A stretch of DNA of 57,088 nt from a virus (IMGVR_UViG_3300010232_000003); one strand, 5' to 3'; counted from the stretch's first letter, positions 36,874-45,407 are shown. Made by a program: numbers and translations. Notes: generated by a model not told the origin, from the sequence alone.

Positions 36874-36953
36874 GCATTGCGCGACGGAAGGGGAGCGTGT
36901 GAGGAAGGGTGTGGTGCGTGACAGTTAATCGCCACGGCGCCCCTGTTCGGGCA

Positions 36954-37028
36954 CGTCACCTGTCCTTCGCGCTTCAGCCAGGTGAGCGGCTGGGATCGAA
37001 CCAGCTGCCTTCCATGTACACGTAAGGC
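36954..37028 (-). ncRNA. T-arm-containing structured RNA element in the leader of the HNH gene
   Basis: RNA: GCCUU-N12-AAGGC, then A, then GCUGG-UUCGAUC-CCAGC, then a 9-bp hairpin CG(C)UCACCUG..CAGGUGACG stacked on it. Confidence 0.3.
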
Positions 37029-37038
37029 CCGTAACGCC

Positions 37039-37047
37039 ATAAGTCTT
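37039..37047 (-). promoter_or_regulatory. Class-A TATA-like box
   Basis: ATAAGTCTTACTCTTAC on the plus strand, the same as in the 38282-38300 copy. Confidence 0.5.
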
Positions 37048-40674: not shown

Positions 40675-41127
40675 ATGGCACGATCACAGGCGGGACGCTA
40701 CACCAACATCGCACAGGACGAATTCGAGGAGTTCCTCGAGGACTTCGCTCAATTCGAGGAGGTCGACATGGACGATGTCAACGAGGTCGTTTACTCCATC
40801 GATCTCCCAGCGAACGACCTCGAGCTCCGAGTGTTCTCGACGCTCCAAAACGGGAGCGCTCGGGACCGCGGGGACGACGCGATCCGAAACGTCGTGTGGA
40901 GCCTCGAGGACGACCGCCCAGTTTCCGGGCGCAGAAAAACACTTAGGATCGAGTCGTGGCGGAGCAACCTCCGTCCCAAAATCCAAGACATGGCGCTCAA
41001 CTGGAGAGAAGCCATCAACCCGCGATGCGACGAGTGCGAAGCGTGGATGGCTCGTCGCGAATCCGAGCACGGCGAGTTCTGGGGGTGCTCGAACTACCCG
41101 AACTGTCGACACACCATCGACATCTAG
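40675..41127 (+). CDS. Protein with C-terminal topoisomerase-type C4 zinc finger
   Basis: CDECEAWMARRESEHGEFWGCSNYPNCRH. Confidence 0.6.
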   Translation: MARSQAGRYTNIAQDEFEEFLEDFAQFEEVDMDDVNEVVYSIDLPANDLELRVFSTLQNGSARDRGDDAIRNVVWSLEDDRPVSGRRKTLRIESWRSNLRPKIQDMALNWREAINPRCDECEAWMARRESEHGEFWGCSNYPNCRHTIDI

Positions 41128-42008
41128 TACGACAAATCGGGTTCCCTGCCACGGACTCGATCGCTCAAGATATGAATCTGGCCATTCCCAGTGTGATAAC
41201 TGTTATTCATCACGGTGACGTGTGAATACCCATAGGCCTCGACGAAGTCGTCTTGATCGGGCTCGTGGTTGTCGTGGGACAACCCGAGACAATGCCCGAT
41301 CTCGTGTAGCGTCGAGTTAATCGAGTACCCGAGCCCGCCGTAGTGCCGTTCACGGATACACGCGTCGTCTCTCCATGGCTCGTGGTCGACTGGACCATCG
41401 AGCTTGTGGAGGTTCACGACGCAGTAGTGCCCACCGCCCTCCCCGTACACCCCGGGAAGGTGACCGATGAGCGCGTTCGCGTGCTTCGCTCGGTTCTCCG
41501 ACGTTAATTGGTGCCAGTAGTACTCTTTGAACGCGACGAACCACGATCCGTGATGGTCACGAGAGTCTTTATCGATCGGTAACGGTTCGGGGTGGATGAC
41601 GCAGTCGACTTCGTAGCCCTCGCCCCAAGCTTCCTCGTAACAGTACTCGACGTAGGGCTTCGCCATCTTGCACGCCCACTCGCCGAGCGCGTCGCCGACG
41701 CGCCAATACAGTCGTACCTCGATGGTCTCGTCGCCAACGCCGCGATGCGGCGGGTCCACGCACGGGTTCGGTGGCCACGTGATGTCGAGCGACTCGTCGC
41801 TCGAGCGATTCACGTCCTCCGTCTCTTCTTCGTCGTCGTCGCTGGGTGGCGTGTGCTCCTCGACTGGAGGGTCTTCAGTCTCGTTAACGTCACTCTCAGT
41901 GTCACGCGTCTCTTCGACGTCCTGGTCACTACTAGTGTCGGTCTGGTCGCCGCTATCAGTGCGCCTGAACCGTTCGAGCAGCGCTCGTAGTAACTGGTAT
42001 AGGTTCAT
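41124..42008 (-). CDS. Metzincin-like zinc metalloprotease
   Basis: HEIGHCLGLSH fits HExxHxxGxxH. Trimmed to ATG 42008, which makes an ATGA overlap with the Ro60-like stop. Confidence 0.65.
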   Translation of the reverse strand: MNLYQLLRALLERFRRTDSGDQTDTSSDQDVEETRDTESDVNETEDPPVEEHTPPSDDDEEETEDVNRSSDESLDITWPPNPCVDPPHRGVGDETIEVRLYWRVGDALGEWACKMAKPYVEYCYEEAWGEGYEVDCVIHPEPLPIDKDSRDHHGSWFVAFKEYYWHQLTSENRAKHANALIGHLPGVYGEGGGHYCVVNLHKLDGPVDHEPWRDDACIRERHYGGLGYSINSTLHEIGHCLGLSHDNHEPDQDDFVEAYGYSHVTVMNNSYHTGNGQIHILSDRVRGREPDLSY

Positions 42009-43540
42009 GGCTCGTATGCTTGAATGTCGTCTAGTAAACTGTTCTCGGCGTGCCAGATATAATCCAACACGCCGTCGTTCCATCCCTGCAGTCTCGTGAC
42101 GCCCGGATAGTTCTCTGGGAACTTGATCTCGCCGTAACTCGCCAAGTCCACGATGTACAAGTACGGTTCCTCGGAGTGCATCTCGCGAAGCCTCTCCCAC
42201 GCACCACGGAACGCGTTCGGGTCGTTACCGTACCGCTGTCTCTCCCAGATCTGGAAATCAGTGAACACCACGACTCTATCAGGAACGACTTCCCCATCAG
42301 TAGACTCGTCCGCGATGAACTCGAGCGCCTTGTGAGCGAACGTGCTACTCCCGACATCCGTGGACACGATCGCTTCTTGCAACGAGAGCACACTGTTCTC
42401 GAGCGGGTCAACGGGGACACGAGTCGCTGTATCAGCGAACGCGATGACATCCGAGCGTCTCTGACCGAGCATCGCGCCGAACAACGCCGCGATCTCGACG
42501 CGACTGAGGTCACTCCGGTTCGACACCCGTTGTTGCATCGAGCCCGACAGGTCCACGAGCGTCGCTGTGTGTACGAGCTCGTCTGGCACGGTTTCACACG
42601 CGACGTTCACCGCGTTCTCGAGCCACTGGTGCGCGTAGCGATCCATCTCAACAGCGCCCTTGAGTGCTTTCCGCGCTTGGTAGAACCTGAACGGGTATAG
42701 TTGACTGTTCCGGATCCACTCGTCGCTCGCGTCCTCGAGGATTTCTTCACCAGTCAGCCCGGCTTCGAGCATGTTCCGTAAGTTCCGGACCCGAGCGAAT
42801 AACCCCATGTCGTCGAGTACGAGACGCCAGTCATTAGCCGTGACGTCGCCGTCTTGCCCAGCTGCACTGATGGTGTCTTCCCACGTACGTCTCTGGCTGA
42901 GAGACTGTACGTCTGGATACGCGTCCTTCCCTCCCTTGGTTATCCTATTCGCGATCTCAGACTGTTCCTCGACCGGTTCTGGACTGTCCTCGTACCCATA
43001 TGGGTGCACTTGGTTGAACACGTCGTGCATCGAGACCGCTCGGTGCCCTTGTCGGTACTTCGCGTACTGGTACGCGTCGAACGACGCGTCCTCGATCACG
43101 TCAGCGATGGCTCGTTTCAAGACCCATGGAACCGTCGCGGAGAAATCACCCGGACCGTCACCAGCAACGGTGTTGTTAAACGCGAGCGTCGTGCAGAGCT
43201 CGTCAGCTCGATCGATCACGTGGCTCGCGTATCGTCGAACGTAGTGCTTCGCGTCGTCGTGGCGCGCGCTGAGCACGAGTAATACTTGCGGGACGTCTCG
43301 AACGTATGCGTCTCGTCGCGCCCACGCAGCGAGTCGCAACGGGAACTCGGGATCCACGTTCGCAGCTGCTTGGAAGCGCTCGACGAGTTTCTCGAGCGAC
43401 TCCGAGTCGTCCTCGTAGTACGTGTCCTCGAGTAAGTTAGTAATCGTGACCATTCGAAGCGCTTCACGTGGGTCACTGATCTCGTGGCTATGGCCACCAG
43501 CGAGGTTCCGCGCTTCTGTTTTAGACGAGTTCAAGTCCAT
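42005..43540 (-). CDS. Ro60-like TROVE-domain protein with C-terminal vWA (MIDAS) domain
   Basis: Trimmed to ATG 43540. NLAGGHSHE, YQYAKYRQGHRAVSMHDVFNQVHP, LFARVRNLRNMLEAGL, QLYPFRFYQA, LVDLSGSM. Confidence 0.75.
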   Translation of the reverse strand: MDLNSSKTEARNLAGGHSHEISDPREALRMVTITNLLEDTYYEDDSESLEKLVERFQAAANVDPEFPLRLAAWARRDAYVRDVPQVLLVLSARHDDAKHYVRRYASHVIDRADELCTTLAFNNTVAGDGPGDFSATVPWVLKRAIADVIEDASFDAYQYAKYRQGHRAVSMHDVFNQVHPYGYEDSPEPVEEQSEIANRITKGGKDAYPDVQSLSQRRTWEDTISAAGQDGDVTANDWRLVLDDMGLFARVRNLRNMLEAGLTGEEILEDASDEWIRNSQLYPFRFYQARKALKGAVEMDRYAHQWLENAVNVACETVPDELVHTATLVDLSGSMQQRVSNRSDLSRVEIAALFGAMLGQRRSDVIAFADTATRVPVDPLENSVLSLQEAIVSTDVGSSTFAHKALEFIADESTDGEVVPDRVVVFTDFQIWERQRYGNDPNAFRGAWERLREMHSEEPYLYIVDLASYGEIKFPENYPGVTRLQGWNDGVLDYIWHAENSLLDDIQAYEP

Positions 43541-43542
43541 GG

Positions 43543-43794
43543 TTAGAACCTCTCGTCCTCCGCGGTGAACACGACGCCGTCCTCGACGACTTCGACTGTC
43601 CCAAGAACGTATTCTTCCTCGATGGTTTTCTCCGTCGTGACGATGAGCTCCGGGATGGTCTCGACGCCGAATCGATCCATCGCTTGACGCTCGATGGACG
43701 CTACGTCGTCCTCGCTGAGCTCGGATCTCGCGTCGCTCGGGACGTGTAATCGTGGCTCGTCGTCTTTCTTGACCTCGACGTTGAAATCGTTCAT
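43543..43794 (-). CDS. Small acidic hypothetical protein
   Basis: 83 aa. GAGGT lies 10 nt upstream. Stop is 2 nt before the Ro60-like start. Confidence 0.6.
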   Translation of the reverse strand: MNDFNVEVKKDDEPRLHVPSDARSELSEDDVASIERQAMDRFGVETIPELIVTTEKTIEEEYVLGTVEVVEDGVVFTAEDERF

Positions 43795-43869
43795 TGGTAT
43801 GTACCTCGGATGAGTGGGAACCGGGTGTTAGTGTCTTATGCCGTGTTAGACCACGTTGCCGTGCTGTGC

Positions 43870-43934
43870 ACGACAAGTCGCGATTCGAACGCGAGTCACT
43901 CGCGCTAGATGCGAAGTAACCGGTTCCCTTGCCG
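43870..43934 (-). ncRNA. 65-nt tRNA-like element U2 (acceptor stem, T-arm, 7-nt loop AUCUAGC, vestigial D region)
   Basis: CGGCAAG/CUUGUCG (one G-U). UCGCG-UUCGAAU-CGCGA. UUCGC-AUCUAGC-GCGAG. Confidence 0.35.
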
Positions 43935-44035
43935 AGTGCGCCGGAGCCCGTCGTGTGCCCGCGAGTCCTCCAGGTCCGCACGACGGCACGCGGTCACTGG
44001 ATGTGTCCCTTCCGGGACGGCGAGCTGTTTTCGCT

Positions 44036-44143
44036 CCGGCAAGTGAGAACGGAGGGACTCGAACCCTTCGTCGTTCCCATAAGCCCGGGTGAATCCGTGT
44101 CAGGGTGTTCGGGAGCTTTCGAAGTAACTGACACGGTTGCCGG
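44036..44143 (-). ncRNA. 108-nt branched tRNA-like element U1 containing an acceptor/T-arm minihelix
   Basis: Outer stem CCGGCAA/UUGCCGG. 9-bp hairpin CCGUGUCAG..CUGACACGG. Minihelix GGGAACG-ACG-AAGGG-UUCGAGU-CCCUC-CGUUCUC-A (44044-44078). Confidence 0.35.
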
Positions 44144-44147
44144 GCAG

Positions 44148-44222
44148 TTGCGAGGGATGGACTCGAACCATCGGTTTCACGGGCATGAGCCGTGCGGAGT
44201 AGCCTAGCTGTCCTACCTCGCA
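44148..44222 (-). tRNA. tRNA with anticodon CAU (Met, or Ile2 if modified)
   Basis: Hand-folded cloverleaf: acceptor UGCGAGG/CCUCGCA, U8, D-loop with GG, anticodon arm CACGG-CUCAUGC-CCGUG, T-arm GAUGG-UUCGAGU-CCAUC, discriminator A. Confidence 0.85.
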
Positions 44223-44249
44223 TCGAGTGTAAGTTAAACACGTAACGGT

Positions 44250-44258
44250 ATAAGTCTT
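44250..44258 (-). promoter_or_regulatory. Class-A TATA-like box driving the tRNA / ncRNA / Ro60 operon
   Basis: ATAAGTCTT on the plus strand. The tRNA 5' end lies about 27 nt downstream. Confidence 0.6.
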
Positions 44259-44264
44259 TCTCTG

Positions 44265-45407
44265 TCAGTTATCATAGAGGTCCTCGAACGACTCCGGTGG
44301 CTCGTCAGTTAAGCTCCGCGACTCGGGTGGTTCATCGTCCGATGGCGGCTCGATATCGAAGTCACTCAAAGACGGCCCATACTCTCCATAGTATTCCCGC
44401 ATCGCGGTTACGCGCTTCTCGAATTGACTGCGAAAGTATCGACCAGTATCGTTCACGTCCACGATACGAGCGTGGTCACCGTTCTTCGGTCGTAGCGCTC
44501 GCCCGATGACCTGGATTTGCTTGACGTCGCTTTTCCCTGCTTGCGCGAGAACGATAGCGCTAATGTTCGGGATATCGACGCCCTCCCTTAATAGCGTCGA
44601 GACGAGGATATCGAGGTCACCGTTTTGGAACTCGTCGAGTGTATCCTGACGGATCTTAGTGGTGTCAGCGCCGTGCATGAACTCGGCGTTCGTATCAGCG
44701 ACTCGACTCGTCGCTTGCAACGCGCTGATGAACTCGCGCCTCGATTGCGCGTCGTCGAAGTCAACGGCGTCAATAGGATCGACGTCTCGGTTCAGTGCGT
44801 ACTCGAGGAGACGCCCGTGCTTGATACGATCCACGTTAACCAACACTTGGTACCCCAGGTTGGCGAGCTCAGCGGTTTTCGCCGCGACCGCGCGGTTCCT
44901 CGTCGCGGTGAGACTGATACAGCGACGGTACGCGTCGTGATACGCTTCACCTGTATTAGCGGTGTCGACACGACCGTAGTCTCGAGGGTCGATGACGTCG
45001 AATCGCGGTTCTGAGAGATACCCGGCGTCGATCATTTCCTCGGCGGTAACGGAGTGCGCCTCGCCGCCAACCGCGCCCTCGATCTTGAGCTCCTCGCCCT
45101 CGATACGGCGCCACGGGGTAGCGCTGAGCCCGACACGCATCGCGACGTTTAAATCCATCCCGATGTCGTGCATTGTGTCCGCCGCTGATGTCCTGTGACA
45201 GTTTTTTGTCAAGATATTATCAACAAAGAAGTTGTGATTGTTTTTTACTTCGATGTCGTAGACACGTTCTCGTCCGACTTTTTTGACTGTACGGACTGTA
45301 GTTCGATTCGCATCGCCATCGCGTACAGCTCGGGCTGCGCCTTCTTCAACATTTGACTCGCTGTCCATGCTGCTTTCGTGTGAATTGTCGCGTGACATGA
45401 CGTACAT
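44265..45407 (-). CDS. C-terminal intein fragment fused to the C-terminal half of an SF2 helicase
   Basis: ..VKKVGRERVYDIEVKNNHNFFVDNILTKN then CHRTSA. GLSATP motif III. Helicase C-domain motifs. Confidence 0.8.
   Translation of the reverse strand: MYVMSRDNSHESSMDSESNVEEGAARAVRDGDANRTTVRTVKKVGRERVYDIEVKNNHNFFVDNILTKNCHRTSAADTMHDIGMDLNVAMRVGLSATPWRRIEGEELKIEGAVGGEAHSVTAEEMIDAGYLSEPRFDVIDPRDYGRVDTANTGEAYHDAYRRCISLTATRNRAVAAKTAELANLGYQVLVNVDRIKHGRLLEYALNRDVDPIDAVDFDDAQSRREFISALQATSRVADTNAEFMHGADTTKIRQDTLDEFQNGDLDILVSTLLREGVDIPNISAIVLAQAGKSDVKQIQVIGRALRPKNGDHARIVDVNDTGRYFRSQFEKRVTAMREYYGEYGPSLSDFDIEPPSDDEPPESRSLTDEPPESFEDLYDN

What the first reader, a model, noticed from the sequence alone, without database searches (positions are those of the whole stretch)
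42005..44258. Ro60/TROVE-vWA protein operon headed by a tRNA and two tRNA-like RNAs, a possible viral Ro-Y RNA module
The product of 42005-43540 carries sequence signatures I associate with Ro60/Rsr: NLAGG.., YQYAKYRQGH..HDV..VHP, RVRNLRNML, YPFRFYQA and a DxSGS MIDAS (LVDLSGSM). Bacterial and some phage Ro60 genes are known to sit next to Y RNA genes whose effector module mimics tRNA (YrlA, Wolin lab work, recalled from memory). Here a 470-nt non-coding stretch lies on the same strand directly upstream. It starts about 27 nt after a class-A TATA-like box (44250-44258). It holds one canonical tRNA(CAU) and two further elements with perfect T-arms (G53-UUCGAnY-C61) and acceptor-like stems, but neither folds into a normal cloverleaf. 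GC-rich hairpins lie between them (GUCCC-GGAA-GGGAC and CCGUCGUG..CACGACGG). The operon continues with an 83-aa acidic protein, the Ro60-like gene, and an ATGA-coupled metzincin-like protease. I do not know of a Ro/Y-RNA module described in an archaeal virus and cannot verify novelty here.
Basis: partly seen in the sequence, partly recalled or inferred. Interest (0 to 1): 0.9.

Follow-up and report, generated by a model that had tools for sequence, protein, structure and literature searches.

The report
Archaeal virus Ro60 with Y RNAs
A tailed virus of salt-loving archaea carries a Ro60 RNA-binding ring protein directly preceded by a tRNA and two Y-type partner RNAs, one a circularly permuted tRNA mimic like bacterial YrlA, which extends the Ro60/Y RNA system to archaeal viruses and, by my searches, to their cellular hosts.

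Summary
42005-43540(-) encodes a full-length Ro60 orthologue: TROVE plus vWA with a complete MIDAS motif, and the 13 best PDB fold matches are all Ro60. The upstream 470 nt is non-coding and starts 27 nt after a recurrent promoter box.

The region holds:
- tRNA(CAU), 44222-44148.
- An acceptor/T-arm minihelix, 44078-44045.
- A GC-rich spacer that I cannot explain.
- A 134-nt long Y RNA, 43937-43804. Its core runs V hairpin, T arm, closed acceptor stem, D arm, which is the YrlA order.

Both Y RNAs share one scaffold: stem A, CAA, 9-bp stem B, UUACUUCG ... stem B', ACUCAU, stem A'. I found 27 copies in nine related viral loci, always upstream of TROVE on its strand. Stem B is 96% paired, with compensatory changes at all nine pairs.

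A covariance model built only from bacterial and phage YrlA-like RNAs has its best window hit on the long element (26.3 bits, E 4e-4). It scores relatives up to 66 bits. It also finds Y RNAs upstream of most of the 54 cellular haloarchaeal TROVE genes searched.

Ro60 binding, processing and function are inferred. I rate this a new variant of a known kind.

The parts
44250..44258 (-). Archaeal TATA-like promoter box AAGACTTAT. It is preceded by GAGAAAG and ends 27 nt before the tRNA 5' end.
   Evidence: 11 copies in the window against 0.61 expected. The same box precedes the RNA arrays of L003-L010. Promoter function is inferred.
44148..44222 (-). Canonical tRNA with anticodon CAU. The anticodon loop is CUCAUGC, with an unusual G37.
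   Evidence: Rfam tRNA 52.7 bits, E 1.6e-8. ARAGORN agrees. The orthologous tRNA(CAU) in L004 also abuts a Y module with a 2-nt spacer.
44083..44145 (-). Short Y RNA (Y1, 63 nt). Layout: stem A GCCCGG/CCGGGC, internal loop CAA//AUUCAC, 9-bp stem B CCGUGUCAG/CUGACACGG, and an apical UUAC-UUCG..CGAA hairpin. It has no tRNA-like core, so it is YrlB-like.
   Evidence: Model R2, built from 8 short forms of other viral loci, scores it 50.5 bits, E 8e-14, full length, and it is the top hit in the window. Folding z-score is -5.97. The scaffold covaries.
44045..44078 (-). Acceptor-stem plus T-arm minihelix: GGGAACG-ACG-AAGGG-UUCGAGU-CCCUC-CGUUCUC(A). It has no D or anticodon arm and lies 4 nt after Y1.
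   Evidence: Read from the sequence. There is a weak sub-threshold mascRNA-like Rfam alignment (18.1 bits, E 0.68). A role as an RNase P / tRNase Z processing signal is inferred.
43938..44044 (-). GC-rich spacer holding the GUCCC-GGAA-GGGAC and CCGUCGUG..CACGACGG hairpins, closed by GCCGGAGC/GCUCCGGC. Its function is unexplained.
   Evidence: Folded together with the minihelix, its energy is not significantly better than shuffles (z -1.65). I found no homologue in related loci. The only substitution in L002 that falls inside a hairpin stem (C to U) keeps a G-U pair.
43804..43937 (-). Long YrlA-like Y RNA (Y2, 134 nt).
- Stem A: CUCGG/CCGAG.
- Internal loop: CAA//ACUCAU.
- Stem B: GGGAACCGG/CCGGUUCCC.
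- UUAC.
- V hairpin: UUCGC-AUCUAGC-GCGAG, 43915-43899.
- T arm: 43894-43878.
- Closed 9-bp acceptor-like stem with an ACA loop: 43876-43856.
- D arm: GUCU-AACACGGCAUA-AGAC, 43851-43833.
The 3' strand of stem A carries the SD-like GAGGU, 8 nt before the ORF83 ATG.
   Evidence: The bacterial-only YrlA model R1 matches it end to end at 26.3 bits. E is 5.7e-6 in the local search and 4e-4 window-wide, and it is the top hit. R2 hits its scaffold (15.8 bits). Folding z-score is -5.85. The orthologue in L003 also scores 26.3 bits.
43543..43794 (-). ORF83, an acidic 83-aa protein of unknown function.
   Evidence: ORF call. No Pfam hit. Present only in the window/L002 lineage. It is not part of the conserved module.
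42005..43540 (-). Ro60 orthologue, 511 aa: a TROVE HEAT-repeat ring plus a vWA domain with MIDAS (D330-x-S332-G-S334, T400, D428).
41124..42008 (-). Metzincin-like ORF (HEIGHCLGLSHD), start-stop coupled to Ro60 through ATGA.
   Evidence: The motif is read from the sequence. All Pfam metallopeptidase hits fall below their cut-offs (Astacin 19.3 against 22.5). It is lineage-specific.

Best explanation
This is a Ro60/Y RNA module of a haloarchaeal tailed virus.

Proposed sequence of events:
1. A strong viral promoter (box at 44250-44258) drives one precursor: tRNA(CAU), short Y RNA (Y1), tRNA-like minihelix, spacer, long Y RNA (Y2), ORF83, Ro60, metzincin-like ORF.
2. The tRNA and the minihelix abut Y1 with spacers of 2 and 4 nt. 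Host RNase P and tRNase Z would therefore cut out Y1 with defined ends. This step is inferred.
3. Both Y RNAs pair their 5' and 3' ends into a long helix. The helix is interrupted by a conserved asymmetric internal loop (CAA opposite ACUCAU) and followed by UUAC-UUCG. By analogy with all characterised Y RNAs, the Ro60 ring binds this bulged helix. This step is inferred.
4. Y2 carries on top of that helix a circularly permuted tRNA-like core: V hairpin, T arm, closed acceptor stem, D arm. That is the architecture of bacterial YrlA. It would present a tRNA elbow to a tRNA-binding effector, tethering or gating Ro60 for RNA quality control, decay or repair during infection. This step is inferred.
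5. The 3' strand of Y2's helix overlaps the ribosome-binding site of the first ORF. Ro60 binding, or helix formation alone, may therefore also feed back on translation of the operon. This step is inferred.

Shown computationally:
- The protein is Ro60.
- The RNA scaffold is conserved, covaries, and is strictly linked to TROVE.
- The long form is homologous to bacterial YrlA-type RNAs.
For: Protein: TROVE, vWA and MIDAS are present, the match to phiLo Ro60 is full length, and the fold matches are Ro60 only.

Scaffold:
- I found 27 modules in the window plus L003-L010, all upstream of TROVE on its strand.
- The same pattern-plus-pairing scan found no other copy elsewhere in the window or in those loci.
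- It found none in the 74 cellular TROVE loci or in 120 unrelated IMG/VR stretches.
- Stem B is 96.3% paired, and 9 of 9 pairs show double changes. The covariation score is 0.742 against 0.223 for shuffles (0 of 500 as high), and slid registers are 31-50% paired.

Model tests:
- R2, built without any window sequence, finds Y1 at 50.5 bits (E 8e-14) and Y2's scaffold as the second hit.
- R1 was built only from 13 Bacteroidota and phage YrlA-like RNAs whose structure is 97.9% paired.
- R1 matches viral long modules end to end at 65.8, 58.7, 53.4, 46.9 and 40.9 bits.
- R1's best hit in the whole window is Y2 (26.3 bits, E 4e-4).
- R1 gives 63 hits, all on the TROVE strand, in 54 cellular haloarchaeal loci. 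Most lie 140-330 nt upstream of the gene.

Shared and clade-specific motifs:
- The UUACUUCG motif (YrlA's conserved YUAY) is shared by bacterial, phage, cellular-archaeal and viral forms.
- The internal-loop motifs change with the TROVE clade, as expected for a co-evolving protein-binding site. Bacteria have CCGUAG//UUUUGCC, cellular haloarchaea have GUCGAG//CAGUUUUCC, and this viral clade has CAA//ACUCAU.

Array layout: modules and tRNAs are packed with spacers of 0-5 nt. The last module ends 0-12 nt before the start codon in 7 of 9 loci.

Known precedents: YrlA anatomy and Rsr binding (PMC4201824; bioRxiv 10.1101/312249), and phage phiLo Ro60 binding its adjacent Yrl RNAs (PMC12135203).
Against: - There is no expression, processing or binding data.
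- The motif thought to contact Ro60 in bacteria (GNCGAAN0-1G) is absent from this viral clade. Only G-CAA remains.
- The window's Y2 is a weak member. It scores 26 bits and is missed by default filters. It has CGUG instead of the UA linker and a 9-bp rather than a 6-7-bp closed stem.
- Y1 has no significant similarity to bacterial short forms by itself (R1 6.5 bits).
- Modules were collected with a pattern that required pairing, which inflates the percentage paired. The covariation and the independent covariance-model hits are not affected by this.
- Rfam 15 returned only tRNA hits (plus one unrelated sRNA, sot0042) even in the bacterial TROVE loci that carry YrlA-like RNAs. An independent curated check was therefore not possible.
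- Halobacteria are not known to have PNPase (from my own knowledge, not checked here), so the effector is unknown.
Confidence: 0.75

Rival explanations
1. The structured RNAs, Y2 above all, are only a cis-acting 5' leader of the ORF83-Ro60 mRNA. They would be an autoregulatory operator or stability element and would not be released as stable trans-acting Y RNAs.
For: The last module ends 0-12 nt before the start codon in 7 of 9 viral loci. In L006 the ATG lies directly at the stem A 3' strand. SD-like GAGGU, GGAGGUG or CAGGUG sits in that strand in the window, L003, L005 and L010. No terminator-like site separates the RNAs from the ORFs.
Against: - Up to six modules per array, most of them far from any start codon, cannot all be operators.
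- Modules are flanked by tRNAs with spacers of 0-5 nt, which predicts excision.
- Homologous bacterial YrlA and YrlB are stable RNAs bound by Rsr (PMC4201824).
- This rival is compatible with the main explanation for the last module only.
Confidence: 0.12
2. The long modules are circularly permuted tRNA genes, as in Cyanidioschyzon or Thermofilum. The flanking helix would be excised and ligated, and the acceptor loop opened, to give functional tRNAs. Under this reading the link with Ro60 is incidental to a tRNA gene cluster.
For: In relatives the long modules show tRNA-like detail:
- 7-bp closed acceptor stems.
- A UA linker.
- A canonical D arm, GCUC-AGUCAGGUA-GAGC.
- NCCA encoded right after the acceptor 3' strand in 6 of 15 modules, against about 0.2 expected.
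- A 7-nt V-hairpin loop that looks like an anticodon loop, with GUC, GAU, GUA, GCU, CAG or CUA.
Against: - No bulge-helix-bulge motif can form at the junction. In canonical geometry 16 of 17 modules pair only 0-2 of the 4 central positions.
- The hairpin sits in the variable-arm position. The anticodon-stem position is taken by stem B, which continues into the conserved scaffold.
- Short forms share the scaffold but have no tRNA core.
- The same architecture occurs in bacteria, which lack the splicing endonuclease.
- Ser- and Leu-like loops come without a long variable arm.
- The window's own Y2 has no CCA, no UA linker and a 9-bp stem with a 3-nt loop.
- TAG is an ordinary stop codon here (9 of 54 ORFs), so a CUA suppressor is not needed.
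Confidence: 0.07
3. The region is a decayed tRNA gene cluster: pseudo-tRNAs and spacer hairpins with no function of their own and no relation to Ro60.
For: Related loci carry many ordinary tRNA genes in the same position. The spacer at 43938-44044 shows no significant structure.
Against: - The scaffold is conserved with compensatory changes across nine loci whose TROVE proteins are only 55-71% identical.
- The linkage to TROVE is strict.
- The covariance-model matches to bacterial YrlA-like RNAs are significant.
Confidence: 0.03

Closest known systems
Bacterial YrlA and YrlB Y RNAs with Rsr/Ro60 (Salmonella rsr-yrlBA-rtcBA operon, Mycobacterium smegmatis, 22 phages; Chen et al. 2014, PMC4201824; structure in bioRxiv 10.1101/312249)
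   Same: - Encoded next to Ro60 on the same strand.
- A long helix is formed by the 5' and 3' ends.
- A conserved YUAY (here UUAC) opens the variable region.
- The core order is T arm, then closed acceptor stem-loop, then D arm.
- A long form with the tRNA-like core coexists with a short form without it.
- A covariance model of bacterial members detects the viral long forms.
   Different: - The host is an archaeal virus.
- The 5' GNCGAAN0-1G motif is replaced by G-CAA, and the 3' loop by ACUCAU.
- There are 2-6 copies per genome, interleaved with tRNA genes.
- The V region is a regular 5-bp hairpin with an anticodon-like 7-nt loop.
- Several relatives encode CCA inside the closed acceptor loop.
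- The RNAs lie upstream of Ro60 and overlap its ribosome-binding site.
Thermus phage phiLo Ro60 with Yrl1 and Yrl2 (PMC12135203; PDB 9KOP, 9L5Y)
   Same: It is the closest solved structure (E 7e-25; TM 0.71-0.78). It is a viral Ro60 with two Y-like RNAs immediately upstream, each a stem-bulge-stem.
   Different: It is a bacterial phage. Its RNAs carry the CGAA motif. It recruits host PNPase, which Halobacteria are not known to have (my own knowledge, not checked here).
Halogranum tailed virus HGTV-1 gp129 'RNA-binding protein, TROVE domain' (NC_021328)
   Same: It is the only haloarchaeal virus with TROVE in the phage collection, at 41% identity. It has a short Y-like hairpin of the same architecture 3 kb upstream.
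   Different: No Y RNA is annotated there. Its internal-loop motifs are of the cellular type (ACGAC//AAAUUUAG). RtcB and a nucleotidyltransferase lie nearby, and I did not find either in this window.
Deinococcus radiodurans Yrn1
   Same: It is a Y RNA with T-arm-like and D-loop-like elements that tethers Rsr to an effector (PMC4201824).
   Different: In Yrn1 the arms are in tRNA order, D then anticodon-like then T. Here they are in the permuted YrlA order.
Circularly permuted tRNA genes and tRNA-punctuated ncRNA processing (for example MALAT1-mascRNA)
   Same: The acceptor stem is closed by a loop and the ends are paired. tRNA-like structures abut a non-coding RNA and could define its ends.
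   Different: There is no BHB motif. The mascRNA match is sub-threshold. Processing has not been tested.

Membership tests
Ro60/Rsr protein | TROVE (HEAT-repeat ring) domain | tested here: met
   Pfam PF05731 scores 77.3 bits against a cut-off of 23.
Ro60/Rsr protein | C-terminal vWA domain with MIDAS (DxSxS..T..D) | tested here: met
   VWA_2 scores 27.3 bits against a cut-off of 27. The Ro60-specific vWA model is below its cut-off (14.8 against 27.7). D330, S332, S334, T400 and D428 are invariant in 19 sequences.
Ro60/Rsr protein | Ring fold superimposable on solved Ro60 structures | tested here: met
   The 13 best Foldseek PDB hits are all Ro60 (9KOP, 9L5Y, 1YVP, 2I91, 2NVO, 9NEN), with TM 0.59-0.78. 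The model has pLDDT 78.
Ro60/Rsr protein | Binds Y RNA and misfolded RNA | not testable with these tools
   Needs RIP or EMSA.
YrlA-type Y RNA | Encoded within about 4 kb of Ro60 on the same strand | tested here: met
   Y1 and Y2 end 543 and 264 nt upstream of the Ro60 ATG on the minus strand. The same holds for all 27 viral modules and all 63 cellular hits.
YrlA-type Y RNA | [quoted passage not shown] | tested here: met
   Stems A and B covary. Folding z-scores are -5.97 and -5.85.
YrlA-type Y RNA | GNCGAAN0-1G motif near the 5' end (proposed Ro60 contact) | tested here: not met
   This viral clade has G-CAA instead. The motif is recognisable in cellular haloarchaeal forms (GUCGAG) and bacterial forms (GCCGUAG).
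YrlA-type Y RNA | Conserved YUAY opening the variable region | tested here: met
   UUAC is present in both window elements. (N)UACUUCG is invariant in 27 modules and is shared with bacterial forms.
YrlA-type Y RNA | tRNA-like core in the order T arm, closed acceptor stem-loop, D arm | tested here: met
   Y2 aligns end to end to a model built only from bacterial and phage members (26.3 bits, window-wide E 4e-4, top hit). Y1 lacks the core, so it is YrlB-like.
YrlA-type Y RNA | UA dinucleotide between the acceptor stem and the D arm | tested here: not met
   The window's Y2 has CGUG. UA is present in 6 of 15 long modules of relatives.
YrlA-type Y RNA | Bound by Ro60; carries tRNA modifications (psi55, D) | not testable with these tools
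   Experimental.
Canonical tRNA (the two extra T-arm elements) | Cloverleaf with D, anticodon and T arms and a 7-bp open acceptor stem | tested here: not met
   Rfam tRNA hits only 44148-44222, even at E up to 10. ARAGORN's tRNA-Pyl call uses stem A/CAA/stem B as a 'D arm' and the V hairpin as an anticodon arm.
BHB-processed permuted tRNA gene | Bulge-helix-bulge motif formed by leader and trailer at the junction | tested here: not met
   In canonical geometry 16 of 17 long modules pair only 0-2 of the 4 central positions.
Metzincin metallopeptidase (41124-42008) | HExxHxxGxxH zinc motif and a family HMM above its cut-off | tested here: inconclusive
   The motif HEIGHCLGLSH is present. The best Pfam hit, Astacin, scores 19.3 bits against a cut-off of 22.5. 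The Met-turn was not examined.

The most novel reading that the evidence does not exclude
The viral Y RNA arrays are a counter-defence device. The long modules would be tRNA decoys or surrogates held on Ro60. Their V hairpins copy anticodon loops (GUC, GAU, GUA, GCU, CAG, CUA). In several relatives the closed acceptor stem encodes NCCA. Opening by RNase P and tRNase Z would then yield CCA-ended, nicked tRNA mimics that titrate, or are repaired after attack by, host anticodon nucleases. A related, more modest reading is that this is the first sighting of Y RNAs in the archaeal domain, cellular haloarchaea included, with Ro60-binding loops that co-evolve with the protein clade.
Probability: 0.15. 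Interest if true: 0.85.

Novelty: new variant of a known kind. Interest (0 to 1): 0.62.

Why it matters
Ro60/Y RNA particles are studied in animals, where Ro60 is an autoantigen, and in a few bacteria. [quoted passage not shown]

In the papers I could search, I found no described Y RNA from archaea or their viruses:
- Chen et al. 2014 covered bacteria and 22 phages.
- The Asgard-virus and HGTV-1 reports mention only the protein.

This locus and its relatives offer three things:
1. A third-domain branch of the family, with three distinct internal-loop versions that track the Ro60 clade. That is a natural co-variation experiment for mapping the protein-RNA interface.
2. Tractable systems: HGTV-1 with Halogranum, and Halorubrum and Haloarcula species that carry chromosomal copies.
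3. Arrays in which Y RNAs alternate with tRNAs. These fit the proposed origin of YrlA from dimeric tRNA transcripts and suggest tRNA-enzyme-dependent maturation.

Tried and rejected
- Rfam 15, at gathering thresholds and at E up to 10, gave only the tRNA and chance hits. The same library returns only tRNA hits (plus one unrelated sRNA, sot0042) in the bacterial TROVE loci that carry YrlA-like RNAs. Its silence is therefore uninformative.
- ARAGORN's 'tRNA-Pyl(CUA)' amber suppressor is rejected. It is a mis-parse of the Y2 scaffold, and TAG ends 9 of 54 ORFs.
- BHB-dependent permuted-tRNA maturation is rejected, because no central helix can form.
- Kink-turn and hammerhead readings of the conserved loops were considered by eye and dropped. 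The required GA pairs or three-way junction are absent.
- A loose IMG/VR pattern scan returned 120 chance matches, and none had the structure. A stricter pattern gave 3 matches, none real. The viral-type scaffold is therefore rare in IMG/VR. Most relatives came from Logan and JGI assemblies found through the protein.
- The viral-type scaffold (CAA//ACUCAU) was not found in 54 cellular haloarchaeal or 20 bacterial TROVE loci. Those loci carry their own versions.
- The spacer at 43938-44044 showed no significant folding and no homologue, and it is left unexplained.
- ORF83 and the metzincin-like ORF were tested as conserved partners and are not.
- Two review papers on bacterial Y RNAs were not available in the library. 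My statement about novelty rests on the papers I could read.

Full report
**What is in the sequence.** Pfam gives TROVE at 77.3 bits (E 1.8e-21) and VWA_2 at 27.3 bits. phmmer against PDB matches only the Ro60 of Thermus phage phiLo (9KOP/9L5Y), over residues 10-495 (E 7e-25). An AlphaFold model built on 19 homologues has pLDDT 78. Its 13 best Foldseek PDB hits are all Ro60 (phiLo, Xenopus, human, Deinococcus Rsr), with TM 0.59-0.78, and vWA-only proteins follow far behind. The MIDAS residues are invariant in the family alignment. The protein is therefore a Ro60 orthologue.

**What kind of genome this is.** The window encodes a portal, a tape-measure protein, PolB and a primase-polymerase. The portal's best relatives are haloarchaeal tailed viruses, at 33-38% identity. 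Among catalogued phages, the closest TROVE protein is gp129 of the haloarchaeal virus HGTV-1 (41%). Cellular Halobacteria carry TROVE proteins of about 509 aa at about 41% identity.

All of them are present.
- The tRNA(CAU) at 44148-44222 is canonical (Rfam 52.7 bits).
- The two extra T-arms are present, and so are both GC-rich hairpins.
- The box AAGACTTAT at 44250-44258 ends 27 nt before the tRNA. It occurs 11 times in the window against 0.61 expected, so it is this virus's recurrent promoter element.

Rfam finds no Y RNA, even at E up to 10. However, it also returns only tRNA hits (plus one unrelated sRNA, sot0042) in the bacterial TROVE loci that carry YrlA-like RNAs. That negative result is therefore uninformative.

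**The real unit is a conserved scaffold.** I fetched eight contigs encoding TROVE proteins 55-71% identical to this one, plus a 97% relative. All have a tRNA cluster upstream of TROVE. All also carry a repeated element that no tool annotates. Its layout is:

[stem A] G-CAA [9-bp stem B] (Y)UAC-UUCG [insert] [stem B'] ACUCAU [stem A']

I collected 27 copies. The window has exactly two: 44145-44083 and 43937-43804. The stems differ completely in sequence between copies but stay complementary:
- Stem B is 96.3% paired, with double (compensatory) changes at all nine pairs.
- The covariation score is 0.742 against 0.223 for shuffles (0 of 500 as high).
- Slid registers are only 31-50% paired.

One caveat applies. 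My collecting pattern required pairing, which inflates the percentage paired. It does not affect the covariation or the model searches below.

An independent test supports the short form. A covariance model built from eight short forms of other loci (R2, no window sequence) finds 44147-44081 at 50.5 bits (E 8e-14). Y2's scaffold is the second hit, and nothing else in the 57 kb is significant. Both elements fold far better than shuffles (z -5.97 and -5.85). The spacer plus minihelix does not (z -1.65).

**Short and long forms.** In short forms, including the window's Y1, the insert is only a small UUCG..CGAA hairpin. In long forms the insert runs, in this order:
1. A 5-bp hairpin, UUCGC-N7-GCGAG.
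2. A perfect T arm.
3. An acceptor-like stem closed by a loop.
4. Usually UA, then a D arm, often GCUC-AGUCAGGUA-GAGC.
5. The return strand of stem B.

This is the circularly permuted tRNA-like architecture of bacterial YrlA. In YrlA the order is Ro60-binding helix, anticodon-stem analogue, conserved YUAY opening the variable region, T arm, closed acceptor stem, UA, D arm (PMC4201824; bioRxiv 10.1101/312249).

For the window's Y2 the parts are:
- V hairpin, 43915-43899.
- T arm, 43894-43878.
- A 9-bp stem with an ACA loop, 43876-43856.
- D arm, 43851-43833.

ARAGORN's 'tRNA-Pyl(CUA)' is a mis-parse of this element. TAG is an ordinary stop codon here (9 of 54 ORFs).

**Objective test of YrlA membership.** A genome scan with the TROVE alignment returned 54 haloarchaeal and 20 bacterial loci, the bacterial ones mostly Bacteroidota.
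- The bacterial loci, and several phage contigs, carry one to five same-strand elements each. Their form is GUG(C/U)CGUAG, a 7-bp stem, UUACUUCG, V, T, closed stem, UA, D, the stem return, then UUUUGCC. Both long and short versions occur.
- Thirteen long ones align with a structure that is 97.9% paired.
- Model R1, built only from these 13, matches the viral long modules end to end: L007 65.8 bits (E 6e-13), L006 58.7, L010 53.4, L005 46.9, L004 40.9 and L003 26.3.
- With filters off, R1's best hit in the entire window is Y2 (43806-43936, 26.3 bits, E 4e-4).
- R1 also gives 63 hits in the 54 cellular haloarchaeal loci. All are on the TROVE strand, and most lie 140-330 nt upstream of the gene.
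- The cellular consensus is GUGGCC-GUCGAG-[stem B]-(A/U)UCC-UUCG ... [stem B']-CAG-UUUUCC-GGCCAC.

The architecture and the UACUUCG motif are thus shared across bacteria, phages, haloarchaea and this viral clade. The asymmetric internal loop differs by TROVE clade:
- Bacteria: CCGUAG//UUUUGCC.
- Cellular haloarchaea, and similar in HGTV-1 and L207: GUCGAG//CAGUUUUCC.
- The clade of this window: CAA//ACUCAU.

That pattern is what a co-evolving protein-binding site would show. It also means one published defining feature of YrlA, the GNCGAAN0-1G motif, is not met here.

**Mechanism, and what is inferred.** Three things are shown computationally: the protein is Ro60, the RNA family is conserved, covarying and TROVE-linked, and it is homologous to YrlA-type RNAs. 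The rest is inferred.
- Ro60 binds the bulged helix.
- Host tRNA-processing enzymes release the RNAs. The tRNA ends at 44148, Y1 spans 44145-44083, and the minihelix starts at 44078. In relatives, modules and tRNAs are packed with spacers of 0-5 nt. tRNase Z and RNase P cuts would therefore define the Y RNA ends.
- The tRNA-like elbow of Y2 recruits a tRNA-binding effector.
- The last module of each array ends 0-12 nt before the start codon in 7 of 9 loci, and its 3' strand often carries an SD-like GAGGU(G). Helix formation or Ro60 binding could therefore also gate translation.
- The biological role is unknown. It could be RNA quality control, hijacking of host decay, or protection against tRNA-targeting defence.

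**Rivals.**
- A purely cis-acting leader is plausible for the last module only.
- BHB-dependent maturation of permuted tRNA genes is disfavoured. No bulge-helix-bulge can form, short forms share the scaffold, and the same design exists in bacteria.
- Two features in relatives remain intriguing. NCCA is encoded inside the closed acceptor loop in 6 of 15 modules, and the V loops look like anticodon loops.
- A decayed tRNA cluster is excluded by the covariation.

**Novelty.** Ro60 genes in phages, and Y RNAs next to them, are known (PMC4201824; PMC12135203). TROVE proteins have been noted in HGTV-1 and in Asgard viruses without any RNA partner (bioRxiv 10.1101/2021.07.29.454249). Full-text searches found no description of Y RNAs in archaea or archaeal viruses. 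I therefore rate this a new variant of a known kind: a YrlA/YrlB-type module in an archaeal virus, with a divergent binding loop and a multi-copy, tRNA-interleaved organisation.

**Not part of the conserved module.** ORF83 and the metzincin-like ORF occur only in this lineage.

Noticed in passing
window 36923-37041 (-): This is the second-best hit of the bacterial YrlA model in the window (17.1 bits, E 0.055). It has a T-arm, GCUGG-UUCGAUC-CCAGC, and sits right after another AAGACTTAT promoter box (37039-37047), upstream of an HNH endonuclease ORF. Its 5' half may lie upstream of the transcription start. It could be a third tRNA-like or Y-like RNA.
   Followed up: partly
L005 1300-1434, L006 2959-3091 and 3874-4005, L007 3627-3761, L009 2324-2442, L010 349-491: Six of 15 long modules in related viruses encode NCCA immediately after a 7-nt acceptor 3' strand, inside the closed acceptor loop. 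About 0.2 would be expected by chance. The window's tRNA(CAU) gene has no encoded CCA. The window's Y2 lacks this feature.
   Followed up: partly
V hairpins of long modules (window 43915-43899; relatives as): The 7-nt loops follow the anticodon-loop pattern YU-NNN-RN with varying triplets: GUC three times, GAU, GUA, GCU, CAG, and CUA twice. All sit on the same UUCGC/GCGAG stem. They might mimic anticodon loops.
   Followed up: no
window 44148-44222 (-); L004 3630-3704: The tRNA(CAU) has G37 (loop CUCAUGC), which is unusual for a tRNA reading AUN codons (from my own knowledge). The loop sequence resembles the Y RNA 3' internal loop, ACUCAU(C/G)C.
   Followed up: no
L001 (HGTV-1, NC_021328) 1218-1284 and 1290-1491: The cultured virus HGTV-1 has a short Y-like hairpin: GUCGG-ACGAC-GAGAACGC-AUAC-UUCA...GCGUUCUC-AAAUUUAG-CCGAC. 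It lies next to the annotated 'tRNA-Asp + intron', which itself contains GUUACUUCGC. The hairpin is 3 kb upstream of TROVE gp129 on the same strand and near RtcB. The covariance-model scores are weak (10-15 bits).
   Followed up: partly
L011-L063 (cellular haloarchaeal TROVE loci), about 140-330 nt upstream of TROVE: Most of the 54 cellular haloarchaeal TROVE loci searched have one or two YrlA-like RNAs upstream, with motifs GUCGAG and CAGUUUUCC. Some loci (L035, L051) also carry 14 or more tRNA genes there. L049 has the Rfam sRNA sot0042 at 1190-1363.
   Followed up: partly
window 44265-47273 (-): The DEAD/ResIII helicase upstream of the module is interrupted by an intein region. It reads as three ORFs in different frames. 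The middle one (45245-46132) carries C2H2 and HNH-like zinc-finger repeats.
   Followed up: no
window 48516-49757 (-): The virus encodes an Nramp-family divalent-metal transporter (Pfam E 1e-31), an unusual auxiliary gene for a haloarchaeal virus.
   Followed up: no
window 43938-44044 (-): The GC-rich spacer between the minihelix and Y2 is closed by an 8-bp pairing, GCCGGAGC/GCUCCGGC. Folded together with the minihelix, it does not fold significantly better than shuffles, and I found no homologue. It is unexplained.
   Followed up: partly
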